The position numbers were made by a program, and so were the translations under genes. Positions 36,549-42,383 of a stretch of 64,000 bases of DNA are shown piece by piece. The DNA is taken from assembly GCA_035936155.1 (NCBI GenBank), contig DASYWJ010000034.1, forward strand, positions 66,586-130,585, written 5' to 3'. This stretch comes from Tepidisphaeraceae bacterium (GTDB taxonomy: Bacteria; Planctomycetota; Phycisphaerae; Tepidisphaerales; Tepidisphaeraceae). A model generated the notes under the pieces. The model had not been told where the DNA came from. It saw only the letters and a list, made by a program, of their open reading frames with translations, and made no database searches. Within the stretch, counting starts at the first letter, position 1; each line of letters starts with the position of its first letter.

Positions 36549-36556
36549 TATTCACC

Positions 36557-36603
36557 AACACATAGCCCCGGGCATACCCGGGGCTATGTGTTGGAGTCAT
36601 TGT
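36557..36603 (+). terminator. Rho-independent terminator (16-bp perfect stem, CATA loop, T-rich tail)
   Basis: AACACATAGCCCCGGG-cata-CCCGGGGCTATGTGTT followed by ggagtcattgttttc. Confidence 0.7.
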
Positions 36604-36717
36604 TTTCACGCGATATAGACGCGGATTCCCTTTATACTCGTCGCCGCCGGGGCCTTCCGTACAATTCACCGCGTACGATGGCCTTCACCTCACGCATGCA
36701 GCGTGGACGAGGTAGTG

Positions 36718-37563
36718 ATGACCGCCGCTTGGCTGCTCAGCTGGTGGAACCTGATCTTCATCGTGCCCTTCGGGCTCGCGATGGTGTATCTGGGTCTGTA
36801 CACCATGACCGGCCTGGGCGGCGACAACGACGCCGATGCCGATGCCGATGCGGATGCGGAGGCGCATGGCGATCTCGGCCATGATACCGATGCCGATGGG
36901 GATCATGGCGTGCACTCCGCGGAGATGCACCACGGTCATGCCGCAGCGCATGGCCATGAGCACGAGCAGGGACATGCCTCTGCCGCACAGCGCGAGCCGT
37001 CGATGCACGAGACGCTGCTGAACCTGGTGGGCGTCGGCCGGGCGCCGCTCGGAATTGTCCTGATGATTCTCCTGATGAGCTGGGGGTTCATCGGGTTCAG
37101 CATCAACCAGATCGTTCGTCCGATCGTGCCGGCGGACTGGATGGTGGCGCTGGCGTCGCTGCCACTGGCGGCATTTGGCAGCGTGGCCGTCACGGGGGGC
37201 ATCGCGCGGCTCGTCGCCCGGCTGCTCCCGACCACCACGACAACCGCTCATCGCCGCCGCGAGCTGTGCGGCTGCGTTGGTGAAGCGATGTACGAGATCA
37301 CCAGCAACTTCGGGATGGTCGCCGTCCGCGATCGCGACGGCAATCACTACCAGCTGCCCTGCCGCGTTTCCGCCGACCGCGGGCCCATCGCCAAGGGGGA
37401 GCCGGTGTTGCTCGTCCGCTACGACCCGGCGACGAAGATGTATGATGTCATCGCCGACGAACTCGGGCGCGCGGCGCGGGCCCTGAACCAGCCCGCGCCG
37501 GACGCGGCGGCGGTGGAGCGAACCATGGATTCAGCTCAGGAAAGGGACCGGGTGTCACAATGA
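36718..37563 (+). CDS. NfeD-like membrane protein (C-terminal OB-fold) with an Asp/His-rich insertion
   Basis: N-terminal TM helix, then DNDADADADADAEAHGDLGHDTDADGDHGVHSAEMHHGHAAAHGHEHEQGH, more TM helices and an OB-fold-like C-terminus (GMVAVRDRDGNHYQLPCR...GEPVLLVRYD). The stop overlaps the flotillin start as ATGA. An alternative GTG start is at 36703. Confidence 0.7.
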   Translation: MTAAWLLSWWNLIFIVPFGLAMVYLGLYTMTGLGGDNDADADADADAEAHGDLGHDTDADGDHGVHSAEMHHGHAAAHGHEHEQGHASAAQREPSMHETLLNLVGVGRAPLGIVLMILLMSWGFIGFSINQIVRPIVPADWMVALASLPLAAFGSVAVTGGIARLVARLLPTTTTTAHRRRELCGCVGEAMYEITSNFGMVAVRDRDGNHYQLPCRVSADRGPIAKGEPVLLVRYDPATKMYDVIADELGRAARALNQPAPDAAAVERTMDSAQERDRVSQ

Positions 37564-39494
37564 TCTTCGTGCTGTTCCTCATCGGTCTTGCGTTGGCCGT
37601 CGGACCGTACTTCCTTCCGCTCCTCGGGGTGGAGTTGGGGTTCGTGTCGCAGGTGCTGATCTCCGGCGCGGGGCTCGTCGTGCTCGCGCTGGTGGCGCTG
37701 ATCGCCGCCGTCAACCGGCTGTGGCGCAAGGCGTCGGCCAACATGGCGTTCGTACTCACCGGCGGAAAACAGGCGCGGGTGATCGTGGACGGCGGCGCGT
37801 TCGTCATCCCCGTAGTGCACCACGTGACGCCGGTTTCGCTGGAGACGATGCGCCTCAACGTCGAGCGCCGCGGCACCCACGCGCTGATCACCAAGGACAA
37901 CCTGCGCGTCGACCTCTCGGCCGAGTTCTACATCAAGGTGCAGGCCAACCAGGAGGACATCCTCCAGGCCGCTCGCTCGCTGGGCGGGCGCAGCGTCGAG
38001 CCGGGCGCAGTCAGCGAGCTGGTTCAGGAGAAGCTGGTGAGCGCCCTGCGCACCGTCGCGGCGACAAAGGACCTCGTCGAGCTGCACGCCAAGCGCGATG
38101 AGTTCGCCAGCGCCGTGCAGCAGATCGTCACCCACGACCTGGCCAGCAACGGCTTGACGCTGGAATCGGTCACGATCTCCGCCCTCGACCAGACCGATCC
38201 CACGCAGCTCCAGGAGCGCAACGTCTTCGACGCCCAGGGGCTGCGGAAAATCGCCGAGATCACCATGAAGGCGAAGGTGGAGCGCAACGAGATCGAGCAG
38301 GAGAGCTCGCGGATGGTCGTGCAGAAGAACGTCTCCACCCGCAAGCACGTGCTGGACCTGGAGCGCGAGCAGGCGGAGTTCGAGGCCGAGCAGCGCTCGA
38401 AAGTGGCCAATGTGCGAGCTCAGCGCGAGCGCGAGATCGCGGAGTTCAAGCTGGCGCAGGACGAGGCCATCAGCCGGCGCGACATCGAGAAGATGAAGCA
38501 GATCGAGACCGCCGAGGTCGAGCGGACGCTGGCGGTGGAGCAGGCGCAGGTGTCGAAGCAGGTGGCGCTGATCGCGACCATGAAGGAGCAGGAAACGGCG
38601 GAGATCCTCAAGAAGCAGGCGGTGGAAGTGGCCGAGCGGGCGAAGGAAGTGGCCATCGCGCAGAAGGAGCGCGAGCGCGCGGCAGCCCAGGCGCAGGCCC
38701 TGTCGGCCGAGGCGGAGCGCGAAAAGGCCAAGCAGCAGGTTACGACGGTCACGGTCACGAGCGAGGCCGATCGCGAGGCCGCGAAGAAGCTGATCGCTGC
38801 CCAGCAGCAGGTCAAGGAAAAGCAGATTCGCGACCAGACGGAGGCCGACGTGCTCGCGTACATGGCGGTGAAGCAGGCAGAAGCCGAACGCCAGGCTGCC
38901 GAGATGCAGTACGAAGCCCGGCTGCGCCTGGCCGAGGCCGACGCGGCGTCGCAATCGAAGAAGGCCGAGGGCGAACGCGCGATCAAGATGGTCGACGTGA
39001 ACGTCGAGCGCGAGCGCGTCAACGTCGAGCAGGCCCGCGTGGAAGTCGAGCGCGTCAGCCTGAGCAACAAGAGCGAGTTCGAGGAGGCCGCGCTGAAGTT
39101 CGAGCTGGACAAGCTCCGCATCGAGGCCGACAAGCAGGTACGCATCGCCGCCGCACAGGCGCTGGGCAACATGCTCTCCAAGGCCAACATGCAGATTTTC
39201 GGCGATCCAACGACGATGAGCCGCATGAGCGAGCAGTTCATGCGCGCCGCCAGCCTGGGCACCGCCGCGGATGGTTTGATGCGTTCGCTCCCGCCGGACG
39301 CGCAAAACATGCTCGAGCGCGTCGCATCGAGCGTGGGGGTGGCGCTGAAGCCCTCCGACGTGCCGCACGATGGCGCCAACGGCAACGGCGCCTCCGATCC
39401 ACCCGCAGCCTCGCCCGAGCGCAGCGACGACATCGAGCCGACGCCTGAAAGCAAGTCGGTGAAGCGCGTCTCGCGCGAGGACCGCTCAAACTGA
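37560..39494 (+). CDS. Flotillin / SPFH (band-7) family protein with long EA-rich coiled-coil
   Basis: N-terminal TM region, an SPFH domain (ITKDNLRVDLSAEFYIKV...) and about 300 aa of E/A/K/Q coiled-coil typical of flotillins (FloT/YqiK-like). Confidence 0.85.
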   Translation: MIFVLFLIGLALAVGPYFLPLLGVELGFVSQVLISGAGLVVLALVALIAAVNRLWRKASANMAFVLTGGKQARVIVDGGAFVIPVVHHVTPVSLETMRLNVERRGTHALITKDNLRVDLSAEFYIKVQANQEDILQAARSLGGRSVEPGAVSELVQEKLVSALRTVAATKDLVELHAKRDEFASAVQQIVTHDLASNGLTLESVTISALDQTDPTQLQERNVFDAQGLRKIAEITMKAKVERNEIEQESSRMVVQKNVSTRKHVLDLEREQAEFEAEQRSKVANVRAQREREIAEFKLAQDEAISRRDIEKMKQIETAEVERTLAVEQAQVSKQVALIATMKEQETAEILKKQAVEVAERAKEVAIAQKERERAAAQAQALSAEAEREKAKQQVTTVTVTSEADREAAKKLIAAQQQVKEKQIRDQTEADVLAYMAVKQAEAERQAAEMQYEARLRLAEADAASQSKKAEGERAIKMVDVNVERERVNVEQARVEVERVSLSNKSEFEEAALKFELDKLRIEADKQVRIAAAQALGNMLSKANMQIFGDPTTMSRMSEQFMRAASLGTAADGLMRSLPPDAQNMLERVASSVGVALKPSDVPHDGANGNGASDPPAASPERSDDIEPTPESKSVKRVSREDRSN

Positions 39495-39548
39495 CCGACC
39501 CTCTTGTCCCCTCCCCCTGTGCCCAGGGGGAGGGGGAAAGGCTAAGAC

Positions 39549-39974
39549 GTGTCCATCCGCGACGATCTGAACTACGGACTCGCCGCCTTTGGCATCCAGA
39601 TCCCGGAGCGCCTCGATCTCGATGCGAGGCTGACAAGGCTCACCGAGAAGCCGGCACAAAACACCGTCGCCCTCGTAACCGGCGCTGCGGTGCTTTTCTA
39701 CATCGCCGAGCGCGACCACAACCCGAAAGTCCGTGACCTCTACGATGCGCTCGTCTACTGCACGACCAACATCTCGGTCGGCTATTGCGACATCTTCGCG
39801 CAGACGCCTGTTGGAAAGCTGATCGGCAGCATGCTGATGACCATCGGCCCGTCGATGGCCGCGAAGACCCTCGATGGGCCAAAGCAACCCGAGGCCGACG
39901 AAACGCAGCGGCAAATCCTCGCCACCCTGCAGGAGATCGCCGCAAAGCTCGACGCGCCTGCCGTGGGCGAATAG
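39549..39974 (+). CDS. Minimal two-TM potassium-channel-like pore protein (KcsA-like fold) with atypical SVGYCD filter
   Basis: AERDHNPKVRDLYDALVYCTTNISVGYCDIFAQTPVGKLIGSMLMTIG aligns position-by-position with the KcsA segment AERGAPGAQLITYPRALWWSVETATTVGYGDLYPVTLWGRCVAVVVMVAG. The sequence reads as TM1 - pore helix - filter - TM2. Confidence 0.6.
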   Translation: MSIRDDLNYGLAAFGIQIPERLDLDARLTRLTEKPAQNTVALVTGAAVLFYIAERDHNPKVRDLYDALVYCTTNISVGYCDIFAQTPVGKLIGSMLMTIGPSMAAKTLDGPKQPEADETQRQILATLQEIAAKLDAPAVGE

Positions 39975-40002: not shown

Positions 40003-40953
40003 ATGACCGACGACACGCGCCCCGATCGCACGCCGCTGGTTCCCCCCGGGGGCATCGACCATCATTCTGCCGACATGACCGCGACGTTCGCCGCCGACGT
40101 CACACTCAAACAAGCGCAGGCGGCGCTGGGCCAGCGCGAGCACTGGCTTCCGATCGACGGCGACGAAGACCTGCCGCTCGGTCAGCTGATCGAGCAAAAC
40201 TCGACGGGGCCGCTGCGGCTGGGTTACGGCGCGTGGCGCGACCTGCTGCTGGGGGTGCAGTTTCAGGACGGCCACGGCAAGCTCATTACCGCCGGCGGTG
40301 CGACGGTAAAGAACGTCGCCGGCTACGACCTGACGAAATTCATGGTCGGTCAGCGCGGCGTTTTCGGACAAATCGTGACGCTGACGACGCGGACATACCG
40401 CCGCCCTGCCGTGGCCCTGCTCGCCCGCTTCCCCGCGCGGCAATCGATCATCAACGCCCTGCTCCCGACCGACCATCGCCCGCAGTGGGCGCTGCTCACC
40501 AGGGAGGCGCTGAACTGCGGATACCTCGGTGACGAGCAGTTCGGCGCGTTTCAGGAATCGGGACTGCGGCAGGCCGGCGCGCTGCACGTCGCCCGCCGCA
40601 CGCTTCGCGATGACATCGAGCACCGCGCCGGGCTGTGGTGCTGCTACAACGATCTGGCCCTTCGGACATCGGTTCCCCCGGCGCGCATTGCGGAGTTCGT
40701 ATCGCTCGCGAAGCTCAGCGCCTGGGTCGCCGACGCCGCGTTCGGAATCGTGATCTCCTCGCCCACGTCGGAAACCAGCATCGAAGCGGTGAATCGCGCG
40801 GCGATAAGAGTCGGCGGGACGCTGACGATCACGTACCCACGTCAATCCCGCTTCGAGGTGTCGACAACCGACACCGAACGGGGAATGATTGAACGTCTGA
40901 AGGACGCGTTCGACCCGGAGAACCGTCTGACCCCTTTGCCCTGGCGGAGTTGA
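40003..40953 (+). CDS. glcE: FAD-binding oxidoreductase, glycolate oxidase subunit GlcE-like
   Basis: ATVKNVAGYDLTKFMVGQRGVFGQIVTLTTRTYRRP matches the E. coli GlcE segment. The C-terminal LKDAFDPENRLTP matches LKQQLDPCGVFNP. Confidence 0.75.
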   Translation: MTDDTRPDRTPLVPPGGIDHHSADMTATFAADVTLKQAQAALGQREHWLPIDGDEDLPLGQLIEQNSTGPLRLGYGAWRDLLLGVQFQDGHGKLITAGGATVKNVAGYDLTKFMVGQRGVFGQIVTLTTRTYRRPAVALLARFPARQSIINALLPTDHRPQWALLTREALNCGYLGDEQFGAFQESGLRQAGALHVARRTLRDDIEHRAGLWCCYNDLALRTSVPPARIAEFVSLAKLSAWVADAAFGIVISSPTSETSIEAVNRAAIRVGGTLTITYPRQSRFEVSTTDTERGMIERLKDAFDPENRLTPLPWRS

Positions 40954-42383
40954 AATTTTTCGTGAGTAGCAGCGCCCCATCGCTCTCCGGATTAGAACCC
41001 GCGCTCGCGCTCGATCCGCGCACCTACCAGCGCGCGCTCTCGTGCGTGCACTGCGGCCTCTGTCTCCCCGCCTGCCCCACGTACACGGAAACCGGCCACG
41101 AAGCCGACAGCCCGCGCGGCCGCATCCAACTGATGCGCGGGCTTGCCGACGGGCGCATCGAAGCCACGCCGACCGTTAAACACCACCTGGACCTGTGCCT
41201 CGACTGCCGTGCCTGTGAGACCGCCTGCCCCAGCGGCGTCGTGTATCACGAATTGATCGAGGAGACGCGGGCGCGATTTGCTGAGGAGGAGCGGCTCACG
41301 CTGCAGGGGCGGTTGATGCGGTGGATCTTCTTCAACGTTTTCGTCCATCCGACGCGGCTGAAGCTCGCGCTCTTGCCGGCACGCGTGATGCAGAAGATCG
41401 GCGTGTATGGTTTCCTGCGAAAGGTCGGCCTGTTCAAGCTCCTGCCGTCGCAGCTCCGCAAGATGGAGCAGATGCTCCCCGGCGAAGGCAAGCTCTGGCC
41501 GAGGGCCTTGCCGGAGCGCACGCATAGCGCGGGACCCGCTTGCGGCGCCGCGCACCAACGCGTGTCGATCCGCGACGCCGCAAGCGCCCCCCATGCCACT
41601 GAGATCAAGACCGTCGGCTTCTTCGCCGGCTGCATCGGCAGCGTGATGTTCGAGAAAGTGAACCGCCAGGCGGTCGAGCTGCTCGTGGCGTCCGACGTCG
41701 ACGTGCTCGCCCCGCATGATCAGACCTGCTGCGGCGCAATCCACCACCACAACGGCGCCCACCGCCCCGCCGAGGAGATGGCCCGGCGCAACATCGACAC
41801 CTTCCTCCCCGAAGGAAGGCCGGGAGTGGACGCCATCGCCACGAATATCGCCGGCTGCGGCGCGATGCTGCGCGAGTATGACTTGCTCCTACGCGATGAT
41901 CCCGCCTACGCCGAGCGCGCGAAGGAATTCACGCGCCGTGTCCGCGACATCAGCGAAGTCCTCGTCGACGTGAAGCTGCCGGAGATGAAGCACGCTATTA
42001 ACGCGACCGTCACGTACCACGACGCCTGTCATCTCGCGCACGCACAGAAGGTCGTGACGCAACCGCGCGCGCTGCTCGCCAGGGTGCCGGGATTAAAACT
42101 CGTCCCGCTTCCCGAGAGCGACATGTGCTGCGGCGCCGCAGGCACGTACAACCTCCAGCACCCGCAGATGGCGAGCCAGCTCGCCGAGCGCAAGCTGAAC
42201 AACATCGCCACCACCGGCGCGAGCGTCTGCGTCACCGGCAACGTCGGCTGCGCAATGCAGATCCAGAGCGAAGGGCACGCCCGCGGGCGACACCTTAAGG
42301 TCCTCCATCCCGTCGAACTCCTTCACGCCGCGGCATTCGGCTCTTCGGATTGCGGCAGGAACACCTTTCTGGGCTCATCCTGA
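40950..42383 (+). CDS. glcF: Glycolate oxidase iron-sulfur subunit GlcF-like (2x4Fe-4S plus two CCG domains)
   Basis: CVHCGLCLPACPTY, DSPRGRI, CLDCRACETACPSGV, HDACHLAHAQK and MCCGAAGTYNL. The TTG or GTG start overlaps the glcE stop. Confidence 0.85.
   Translation: MKFFVSSSAPSLSGLEPALALDPRTYQRALSCVHCGLCLPACPTYTETGHEADSPRGRIQLMRGLADGRIEATPTVKHHLDLCLDCRACETACPSGVVYHELIEETRARFAEEERLTLQGRLMRWIFFNVFVHPTRLKLALLPARVMQKIGVYGFLRKVGLFKLLPSQLRKMEQMLPGEGKLWPRALPERTHSAGPACGAAHQRVSIRDAASAPHATEIKTVGFFAGCIGSVMFEKVNRQAVELLVASDVDVLAPHDQTCCGAIHHHNGAHRPAEEMARRNIDTFLPEGRPGVDAIATNIAGCGAMLREYDLLLRDDPAYAERAKEFTRRVRDISEVLVDVKLPEMKHAINATVTYHDACHLAHAQKVVTQPRALLARVPGLKLVPLPESDMCCGAAGTYNLQHPQMASQLAERKLNNIATTGASVCVTGNVGCAMQIQSEGHARGRHLKVLHPVELLHAAAFGSSDCGRNTFLGSS

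What the first reader, a model, noticed from the sequence alone, without database searches (positions are those of the whole stretch)
39549..39974. Selectivity filter reads SVGYCD (Gly to Cys in the GYG signature)
- The canonical K+ filter T-V-G-Y-G-D is replaced by S-V-G-Y-C-D, with the flanking pore-helix and TM2 Gly hinge conserved.
- Replacing the second glycine is expected to abolish strict K+ selectivity (compare NaK with TVGDG).
- A Cys in the filter could make conduction redox- or metal-sensitive.
Basis: seen in the sequence. Interest (0 to 1): 0.55.

Follow-up and report, generated by a model that had tools for sequence, protein, structure and literature searches.

The report
Flotillin-linked mini channel, non-glycine filter
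A small potassium-channel-like gene really does read SVGYCD instead of TVGYGD.

Summary
ORF 39549..39974 (+, 141 aa) is a 2TM pore-only protein that passes Pfam Ion_trans_2 and has a Kv/KcsA-like predicted fold. Its filter reads S76-V-G-Y-C80-D81.

The Cys is not an error or a strain quirk. About 64 of the 120 closest homologues keep GYC. In the wider family (Tepidisphaerales, Myxococcota, Caldilineaceae) the site is S, A, C or G, and more rarely D, H or T, while S-V-G-Y stays nearly invariant.

Position 80 changed at least 50 times on a 263-sequence tree. GYC arose in both phyla. Position 80 co-varies with pore-helix residue 74: Asn74 almost only pairs with Ser/Cys80.

This argues against a dedicated redox or metal sensor. 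It supports a family-wide remodelling of the outer filter. Selectivity is untested.

The gene is also the third member of a conserved module, YqiJ/NfeD-like, flotillin, then channel. The module is present in 72 of 82 loci, in three gene orders and two phyla. I found no description of this link in the literature searched.

Best reading: a tetrameric cation pore with a relaxed second-glycine rule that works with a flotillin/NfeD assembly. It is a new variant of a known kind, of moderate to high interest.

The parts
36703..37563 (+). YqiJ/NfeD-like membrane protein gene, first gene of the module
   Evidence: Pfam YqiJ_N at E=6.6e-6. Its stop overlaps the flotillin start as ATGA at 37560-37563. 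Homologues lie next to the channel in most loci.
37560..39494 (+). Flotillin-type SPFH (Band_7) protein gene, 644 aa
   Evidence: Pfam Band_7 at E=7e-21. Weak NCBIfam FloT hit. A homologue lies within 7 kb or less of the channel gene in most of the 82 loci.
39502..39541 (+). GC-rich hairpin in the flotillin-channel intergenic spacer. Its 3' arm contains the GGAGG upstream of the channel start.
   Evidence: Fold energy -34.5 kcal/mol, z=-2.15. Hairpins of different sequence sit at the same place in L001, L002 and L003.
39549..39974 (+). Pore-only 2TM K-channel-like protein gene (141 aa)
39564..39593 (+). N-terminal motif D6-L-N-Y-G-L-A-A-F-G15, invariant in the 37-sequence alignment
   Evidence: Invariant columns; invariant or at least 90% conserved in 120 sequences. 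Predicted helix 3-14.
39651..39707 (+). Outer helix TM1 (about P35-A53), followed by invariant E54
   Evidence: AF2 helix 35-54. E54 shows 0 changes in 263 sequences.
39738..39770 (+). Pore helix (64-74), one residue shorter than in KvAP, ending in N74 (codon AAC 39768-39770)
   Evidence: AF2 helix 64-74. One-residue gap against KvAP in the profile alignment.
39774..39791 (+). Selectivity-filter codons S76 V77 G78 Y79 C80 D81
   Evidence: Sequence read directly. Parsimony changes per site: S76 8, V77 3, G78 1, Y79 10, X80 50, D81 24.
39786..39788 (+). Cys80 codon TGC, at the position of the second signature glycine
   Evidence: Family states are S, C, A and G, more rarely D, T and H.
39807..39875 (+). 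Inner helix TM2 (87-109) with invariant G100-P101 (39846-39851) at the hinge. It ends about 8 residues after the hinge.
   Evidence: AF2 helix 87-109. G100 shows 1 change and P101 shows 0 changes.
39888..39950 (+). C-terminal amphipathic helix (114-134), a possible assembly or partner-binding helix
   Evidence: AF2 helix 114-134, with pLDDT 89 for residues 121-130. Q120, L124 and I130 are conserved.

Best explanation
The gene encodes the pore-forming subunit of a small cation channel. It is presumably tetrameric and has the 2TM P-loop architecture of the K-channel superfamily. It belongs to a distinct, uncharacterised family found in Tepidisphaerales (Planctomycetota), Myxococcota and a few Chloroflexota.

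**Filter.** The family's filter is S-V-G-Y-x-D. The inner part (Ser, Val, Gly, Tyr) would supply the carbonyl and hydroxyl ligands of sites S4 to S1, and it is kept under strong constraint. The residue after Tyr is the canonical second Gly. Here it only needs to be small (S, A, C or G), and it co-evolves with pore-helix residue 74. It pairs with Asn74.

**Inner gate.** The inner helix is short and carries an invariant Gly-Pro at the hinge. I infer there is no bundle-crossing gate, so gating would happen at the filter or through partners.

**Partners.** The gene is co-transcribed or co-located with a YqiJ/NfeD-like gene and a flotillin gene. I infer that it works as a client or effector of a flotillin/NfeD membrane assembly.

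**Shown.** Sequence, fold class, family-wide variation, covariation, purifying selection and synteny.
**Inferred.** Tetramer formation, ion conduction, selectivity (K+-preferring or non-selective monovalent, roughly even odds) and physical interaction with flotillin/NfeD.
For: - **Variation at position 80.**
  - 120 close homologues: GYC about 64, GYS about 26, GYA and GYG about 15 each.
  - 82 fetched loci, mostly GTDB species genomes: SVGYSD 41, SVGYGD 17, SVGYAD 13, SVGYCD 9, including Myxococcota.
  - 150 cluster representatives: A, S and G most common, then H, D, C and T.
  - Position 80 shows 50 parsimony changes, against 1-10 for S76, V77, G78 and Y79.
  - Both S-to-C and C-to-S transitions are recurrent.
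- **Coupling.** Asn74 occurs almost only with Ser/Cys80. Reversions of Asn74 coincide with Ala80. The pair 74-80 is the top MI-APC partner of position 80 and ranks 6th of 5050 pairs.
- **Selection.** dN/dS is 0.13-0.49.
- **Module.** The order YqiJ_N, then Band_7, then channel is seen in the window, with an ATGA overlap. No terminator-like site lies inside the module. Flotillin and/or yqiJ lie within 7 kb or less in 72 of 82 loci, in three gene orders. Divergent members also show the link (L083, L084).
Against: - In canonical channels, replacing the second Gly abolishes function or selectivity. hERG G628S is a dominant-negative loss-of-function mutant (PMC12454933). G628A/S/D are LQT2 variants (PMC7212895). 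A general statement to this effect is in PMC3283738. Conduction by GYC, GYS or GYA pores is therefore not assured.
- No oligomer model, electrophysiology or interaction data exist.
- The AF2 model is a monomer with only moderate confidence at the filter (pLDDT about 75 for residues 71-80).
- The NJ tree rests on about 100 residues, so the counts of independent events are approximate.
- Five loci with full flanks lack flotillin and yqiJ.
Confidence: 0.6

Rival explanations
1. The protein is a non-conducting derivative of a K channel. It has been repurposed as a structural or regulatory membrane partner of the flotillin/NfeD assembly, and the relaxed filter reflects loss of the conduction requirement.
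For: - Second-Gly substitutions to Ser or Ala are loss-of-function in hERG.
- More distant family members have further degraded motifs, such as SVGHS, SVGST, SGGSGG and STQACS.
- There is a precedent: flotillin-associated rhodopsins are divergent members of an ion-pump family with a reduced or absent retinal pocket (PMC10308929).
Against: - S76, V77, G78, Y79, T73, D81, G89, K90 and G100 are nearly invariant across phyla. That is hard to explain without selection on the pore itself.
- Orthologues with a fully canonical SVGYGD occupy the same operon position.
- Position 80 is restricted to small residues and is coupled to residue 74. It is constrained, not drifting.
Confidence: 0.22
2. One reading: Cys80 is a functional redox or soft-metal sensor that makes conduction sensitive to oxidation or to Cd/Zn/Cu.
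For: - Cys in a K-channel filter is very rare. The UNC-58 authors found none in other K-channel classes (PMC11513965).
- GYC is kept across a sizeable Tepidisphaeraceae clade.
- GYC arose again in Myxococcota.
Against: - Ser, Ala and Gly replace Cys in orthologues with the same gene context.
- S-to-C and C-to-S changes are about equally frequent.
- No partner Cys is consistently present. C71 is V or I in Myxococcota, and C74 is absent when C80 is present.
- Covariation with Asn74 suggests the side chain faces the pore helix rather than the ion path (inference).
Confidence: 0.1
3. The protein is an obligate heteromeric subunit. It needs a canonical GYG subunit encoded elsewhere in the genome, as reported for trypanosome TbK1/TbK2.
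For: - TbK1 lacks a conserved filter and needs TbK2 to give currents (PMC6974456).
- GYX genes in trypanosomatids lie next to canonical paralogues (PMC3283738).
Against: - No second pore gene lies in the 64-kb window.
- The family profile gave one match per fetched locus. The flanks were scanned only for flotillin and yqiJ homologues, not for unrelated pore genes.
- The two loci from a single MAG (L039, L041) both carry GYSD.
Confidence: 0.06
4. The Cys is a sequencing or assembly error, or a strain-specific mutation of a normal GYG channel.
For: None found.
Against: - An identical protein is in an independent record.
- About 64 distinct homologues carry GYC.
- The TGC codon is present in 10 fetched loci.
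Confidence: 0.01

Closest known systems
KvAP, KcsA and KvLm pore modules (prokaryotic 2TM/P K+ channel pores, Pfam Ion_trans_2)
   Same: - Best sequence and fold matches.
- Shares AERG at the end of TM1, the SVGY filter core, Asp after the filter, T86/G89/K90 and the Gly hinge 20 residues after the filter. The KcsA comparison was made by hand from a recalled KcsA sequence.
   Different: - The second signature Gly is replaced by C, S or A.
- The pore helix is one residue shorter.
- The inner helix ends about 8 residues after an invariant Gly-Pro hinge, so no bundle crossing is expected.
- There is no voltage sensor and no sensor domain such as RCK.
- The gene is tied to flotillin/NfeD genes.
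Trypanosomatid 'GYX' K-channel homologues (GYSD/E) and TbK1
   Same: These are natural proteins with a K-channel pore in which the second Gly is Ser (PMC3283738). TbK1 has a non-canonical filter (PMC6974456).
   Different: - They are eukaryotic 6TM or Kir-like proteins, paralogous to canonical neighbours and, for TbK1, dependent on a partner subunit.
- Here a whole bacterial family of pore-only proteins varies at this site with no adjacent canonical paralogue.
C. elegans K2P channel UNC-58 (TCGYG)
   Same: It is a naturally occurring Cys inside a K-channel filter. The Cys was shown to confer Na+ permeability (PMC11513965).
   Different: - In UNC-58 the Cys is at the second filter position (TxGYG), whose backbone carbonyl contributes to site S2.
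- Here the Cys is at the fifth position, which lies at the outer mouth in canonical channels.
hERG G628S and other LQT2 second-glycine mutants
   Same: The same filter position is substituted by Ser, Ala or Asp.
   Different: In hERG these are pathogenic loss-of-function or dominant-negative changes. In this family they are the wild-type states under purifying selection.
NaK (TVGDG) and HCN (CIGYG) non-selective relatives
   Different: Both keep the second Gly. NaK loses the Tyr and HCN changes the first residue. The signatures do not match.
SPFH-associated membrane proteins: flotillin-associated rhodopsins, and animal stomatin-family/ion-channel pairs (MEC-2 with MEC-4, stomatin with ASIC, podocin with TRPC6; recalled from general knowledge)
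   Same: - A membrane transport-family protein is genetically or functionally tied to an SPFH scaffold.
- FArhodopsins likewise have altered key residues (PMC10308929).
   Different: - The partner protein families differ.
- I found no report of a bacterial flotillin/NfeD plus K-channel-like module in the searched literature.

Membership tests
Pfam Ion_trans_2 / tetrameric P-loop cation-channel superfamily | Significant match to the family HMM | tested here: met
   28.1 bits against a gathering score of 22.5, residues 41-102. Most homologues are also precomputed PF07885.
Pfam Ion_trans_2 / tetrameric P-loop cation-channel superfamily | Fold of outer helix, pore helix, filter loop and inner helix | tested here: met
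Pfam Ion_trans_2 / tetrameric P-loop cation-channel superfamily | Assembly as a tetramer around a central pore, and ion conduction | not testable with these tools
   Only a monomer prediction was possible. No functional data exist.
Canonical K+-selective channels (KcsA/Kv type) | Signature T/S-x-G-Y/F-G with both glycines | tested here: not met
   The filter is S-V-G-Y-C. The fifth position is C, S or A in most family members.
Canonical K+-selective channels (KcsA/Kv type) | Acidic residue after the filter, and a glycine hinge in the inner helix | tested here: met
   D81 is D in 229 of 263 sequences. G100 shows 1 change in 263 sequences.
Canonical K+-selective channels (KcsA/Kv type) | Inner-helix bundle crossing (long TM2) as the activation gate | tested here: inconclusive
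   TM2 ends at about residue 109, roughly 8 residues after the invariant G100-P101. This suggests there is no bundle crossing, but no oligomer model exists.
NaK-type non-selective channels | Filter T-V-G-D-G-N/D | tested here: not met
   Tyr79 is retained and the second Gly is lost. The fold similarity is only generic.
Flotillin/NfeD (SPFH2-type yqiJ-yqiK) operon module | Adjacent NfeD/YqiJ-like and flotillin genes | tested here: met
   Window genes 36703..37563 (YqiJ_N) and 37560..39494 (Band_7). The start and stop overlap.
Flotillin/NfeD (SPFH2-type yqiJ-yqiK) operon module | Conserved linkage of the channel gene to that pair across taxa | tested here: met
   72 of 82 loci show the link, and 5 of the 10 exceptions are truncated at a contig end. 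Three different gene orders occur. Divergent members L083 and L084 also show the link.
Flotillin/NfeD (SPFH2-type yqiJ-yqiK) operon module | Physical or functional interaction with the flotillin assembly | not testable with these tools
   Inferred from synteny only.
Thiol-based redox or metal-sensing pore | Sensor Cys conserved among orthologues | tested here: not met
   Position 80 is S, C, A or G among orthologues in the same operon. It shows 50 changes on the tree.
Known anti-phage defence systems (PADLOC) | Match of module proteins to defence-system models | tested here: not met
   No hits for the channel, flotillin or YqiJ-like proteins.

The most novel reading that the evidence does not exclude
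This would be the first prokaryotic SPFH-scaffold/ion-channel functional unit. A minimal cation channel would reside in, or be gated by, a flotillin/NfeD cage. Its filter would conduct without the supposedly indispensable second glycine, because a co-evolved pore-helix residue (Asn or Cys at 74) re-wires the network behind the filter. The S/A/C/G state at position 80 would tune selectivity or filter gating.
Probability: 0.3. Interest if true: 0.8.

Novelty: new variant of a known kind. Interest (0 to 1): 0.58.

Why it matters
**Two long-held points are touched.**
1. The second glycine of TxGYG is treated as essentially invariant and mutation-intolerant. A natural family conserved across phyla makes that rule directly testable. 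Ser, Ala and Cys are its wild-type states, natural GYG orthologues serve as built-in controls, and a covarying pore-helix position is already identified.
2. The function of bacterial flotillin/NfeD operons remains unclear. A conserved channel-like partner gene gives a concrete client to test. It echoes the stomatin-family regulation of ion channels in animals.

A cultured carrier exists for experiments: Labilithrix luteola DSM 27648, which carries GYS (locus L031).

Tried and rejected
- **Motif literature search.** Searching for SVGYSD, SVGYCD and SVGYAD gave only irrelevant hits.
- **Flotillin plus K-channel literature.** Searches for flotillin, NfeD and potassium channel, for Ion_trans_2/Band_7/SPFH, and checks of two SPFH surveys found no prior description of the module. 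The SHOCT paper only notes a shared C-terminal domain in unrelated proteins.
- **Backbone conformation of KcsA G79.** The literature search gave nothing usable. I therefore make no claim about the backbone angles required at this site.
- **Other libraries.** NCBIfam gave no specific family for the channel. PADLOC gave no defence-system match. The afdb50 fold library was unavailable.
- **Second pore gene.** None was found in the window by tblastn.
- **Disulfide or CxxC idea.** Rejected as a general feature. The Cys pattern (C71, C74, C80) is not consistent across clades.
- **Sequencing-error hypothesis.** Rejected.
- **Not obtained.**
  - I did not obtain a background census of second-Gly variants across all of PF07885.

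Full report
**1. The observation**

The window has an ORF at 39549..39974 on the + strand. It starts with GTG and encodes 141 aa. Nucleotides 39774-39791 read tcg gtc ggc tat tgc gac, which is S76-V77-G78-Y79-C80-D81.

The protein passes the Pfam Ion_trans_2 gathering threshold with 28.1 bits against 22.5, over residues 41-102. No more specific NCBIfam family matches it. A profile of the family matches the KvAP pore at E about 1e-7 and KcsA at 4e-3, with one residue fewer in the pore helix.

I aligned the stretch from the filter to the inner helix against KcsA by hand, using a KcsA sequence recalled from memory. It aligns without gaps: D81/D80, T86/T85, G89/G88, K90/R89, M97/M96 and G100/G99.

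**2. Not an error and not strain-specific**

A 100%-identical protein is deposited as 'ion channel [Tepidisphaeraceae bacterium]' (P0001). So the window comes from a Tepidisphaeraceae (Planctomycetota) MAG.

Filter states in three samples:

| Sample | Filter states |
|---|---|
| 120 best homologues (55-100% identity) | GYC about 64, GYS about 26, GYA about 15, GYG about 15 |
| 82 fetched loci, mostly GTDB species genomes | SVGYSD 41, SVGYGD 17, SVGYAD 13, SVGYCD 9 |
| 150 representatives of 50%-identity clusters | A, S and G most common; H, D, C and T rarer |

- The GTDB scan yielded 80 of the loci. They come from Tepidisphaerales/Phycisphaerae, many Myxococcota (including the cultured Labilithrix luteola DSM 27648) and two Caldilineaceae.
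- GYC also occurs in six Myxococcota loci.
- The exhaustive search found 200 clusters at E≤1e-10. In those representatives the residue after position 80 is sometimes N, E, Q or K.
- The Cys codon is always TGC. That is one base away from Ser AGC/TCC and from Gly GGC, which are also used at this site.
- dN/dS between Tepidisphaerales orthologues is 0.13-0.49.

**3. How the site behaves**

I built a neighbour-joining tree of 263 non-redundant members, leaving out positions 74 and 80. The minimum numbers of changes per site are:

| Position | Changes |
|---|---|
| S76 | 8 |
| V77 | 3 |
| G78 | 1 |
| Y79 | 10 |
| X80 | 50 |
| D81 | 24 |

- E54, G89 and P101 never change. N58 and G100 change once.
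- Transitions at position 80 run in both directions: S to C 5, C to S 5, S to A 8, G to A 6.
- The inner filter is therefore tightly constrained. The 'second glycine' position is as labile as an ordinary surface site, but it is restricted to small residues.
- The site is not free of constraint. Asn at position 74 occurs almost only with Ser or Cys at 80, and Cys74 pairs with Gly, Ala or Ser.
- Asn74 appears several times on the tree, each time with S or C at 80. Two losses of Asn74 inside the large Asn clade coincide with Ala80.
- In an MI-APC analysis, 74 is by far the strongest partner of 80 (0.249, next best 0.11). The pair ranks 6th of 5050.
- Other top pairs (71-96, 70-93, 72-94, 69-84, 60-81) look to me like pore-helix/inner-helix and turret/filter contacts. 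I did not check them against coordinates.
- I infer that the residue-80 side chain belongs to the network behind the filter. That is the region where KcsA E71/D80 and the equivalent Kv residues control filter stability (general knowledge).

**4. Context: a conserved three-gene module**

- Upstream of the channel gene lie a YqiJ_N (NfeD-type) membrane protein gene (36703..37563) and a 644-aa Band_7/flotillin gene (37560..39494).
- These two genes overlap by ATGA.
- The channel gene follows after 54 bp. No terminator-like site lies inside the module, while a strong one (36555-36594) precedes it.
- An iterative profile search over all ORFs of 82 loci found flotillin and/or YqiJ-like genes within 7 kb or less in 72 loci. 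Five of the ten exceptions are cut by a contig end.
- Every Tepidisphaerales/Phycisphaerae locus with upstream sequence shows flotillin directly upstream of the channel. In most of them the order is yqiJ, flotillin, channel.
- Myxococcota show three orders:
  - the same order as above;
  - channel, yqiJ, flotillin, followed in L039 by a DUF3686/DUF7902/AAA ATPase gene of more than 1400 aa;
  - a divergent arrangement, with flotillin and yqiJ on one strand and the channel on the other, as in L. luteola.
- Linkage that survives rearrangement across phyla is strong evidence of a shared function.
- Even divergent members with SVGYDQ (L084) or SVGYAK (L083) filters keep the neighbours.
- GYG, GYA, GYS and GYC members all occur in the same operon position.
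- PADLOC finds nothing.
- I found no publication describing this linkage. The nearest analogue is the flotillin-associated rhodopsins (PMC10308929).

**5. How it most likely works**

Shown:
- a K-channel-type pore subunit under purifying selection;
- a conserved SVGY core;
- a small, co-evolving residue at the fifth filter position;
- a short inner helix with an invariant Gly-Pro hinge;
- conserved N- and C-terminal helices;
- obligatory-looking linkage to flotillin/NfeD genes.

Inferred:
- Four subunits form a cation pore whose sites S4 to S1 are built as in K channels.
- The residue after Tyr only shapes the outer mouth and the network behind the filter. It can therefore be G, A, S or C, provided residue 74 matches.
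- The truncated, kinked inner helix leaves no bundle-crossing gate. Control would lie at the filter or with partners.
- The channel sits in, or is regulated by, the flotillin/NfeD assembly.
- Selectivity cannot be predicted. Mutant data from canonical channels suggest loss of function or selectivity (PMC3283738; hERG G628S, PMC12454933; G628A/S/D, PMC7212895). A natural filter Cys at another position makes UNC-58 Na+-permeable (PMC11513965). Against that, the strict conservation of SVGY argues for a working ion path.

**6. Rivals**

- **Non-conducting scaffold partner (about 0.2).** Supported by the mutant data, by rare degraded motifs in distant members and by the FArhodopsin precedent. Opposed by the near-invariant pore residues and by the constrained, coupled nature of position 80.
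- **Redox or metal sensor (about 0.1).** Opposed by free exchange with S, A and G in the same context, and by the lack of a consistent partner Cys.
- **Obligate heteromer with a canonical subunit (about 0.06).** There is a TbK1/TbK2 precedent. However, no second pore gene lies in the window, and the family profile gave one match per fetched locus.
- **Error or strain mutation.** Refuted.

**7. Comparison and novelty**

By sequence and fold the protein is a member of the Ion_trans_2 / P-loop channel superfamily. It fails the defining signature of canonical K+-selective channels at one position, and it does not match the NaK or HCN signatures.

The closest natural parallels for the substitution are the trypanosomatid GYSD/E proteins. 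The closest parallel for a filter Cys is UNC-58. The family-wide G/A/S/C variability, the 74-80 coupling and the flotillin/NfeD linkage appear undescribed in the literature I could search.

I rate it a new variant of a known kind. The underlying observation leads to something broader and more interesting.

Noticed in passing
window 39502-39541 (+); L001, L002 and L003 in the same intergenic position: A 13-bp GC stem with flanking pairs (-34.5 kcal/mol, z=-2.15) lies between the flotillin stop and the channel start. It encloses the GGAGG upstream of the GTG. Hairpins of different sequence occupy the same spacer in three orthologous loci. It may set a lower translation level for the channel than for flotillin.
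   Followed up: partly
window 39564-39593 (residues 6-15): The N-terminal motif D-L-N-Y-G-L-A-A-F-G, plus P19, is invariant in a 37-sequence alignment of Tepidisphaerales-type members. It is more conserved than parts of the pore. Myxococcota members have a hydrophobic N-terminal helix instead. It is a candidate partner-binding or interfacial helix.
   Followed up: partly
L039 10145-14383 (+): In L039, which has the order channel, yqiJ, flotillin, the next gene encodes a protein of more than 1400 aa with DUF3686, DUF7902 and AAA ATPase domains. Similarly long ORFs follow flotillin in L029 and L054 but were not scanned. This may be a fourth module component. The window has no equivalent next to the module.
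   Followed up: partly
L031 7400-8908 (+), Labilithrix luteola DSM 27648: A sigma-54 activator with an FHA domain lies directly downstream of the channel gene in this cultured myxobacterium. It is a possible regulator of the locus.
   Followed up: no
alignment positions 71-74 (window 39759-39770): Members with GYG or GYA carry C71-S-T-C74, a CxxC-like pair on the pore helix. The window protein has C71 and N74 with C80 instead. The Cys pattern is not consistent across phyla, since residue 71 is V or I in Myxococcota.
   Followed up: partly
alignment position 80, family-wide: Asn is never seen at position 80 in 263 sequences. From general knowledge, Asn is the non-Gly residue that best tolerates left-handed backbone angles. 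This hints that the backbone here may differ from canonical filters. No structure was available to check.
   Followed up: no
window 36555-36594 (+): A perfect 18-bp hairpin followed by a T-rich tail lies between the argininosuccinate synthase region and the yqiJ-like gene. It is a likely terminator that marks the upstream boundary of the module.
   Followed up: no
window 40014-40953 and 40950-42383 (+); L001, L004, L011, L016, L017, L019, L030: GlcE-like (FAD_binding_4) and GlcF-like (CCG / 4Fe-4S) genes follow the channel gene in the window. GlcE-like hits recur downstream in several Tepidisphaerales loci. This is probably local synteny rather than part of the module, because it is absent in Myxococcota.
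   Followed up: partly
L001 3970-5937 and L002 3254-5891: The flotillin gene in these two metagenome contigs is split into several short called genes. tblastn and jackhmmer still match it end to end, which suggests frameshift errors in those assemblies rather than pseudogenes.
   Followed up: partly
L021, L056, L058, L073, L081: Five Myxococcota loci with complete flanks have the channel homologue but no detectable flotillin or yqiJ within 7 kb. In L021 a 637-aa ORF with no Pfam match overlaps the channel's end.
   Followed up: no
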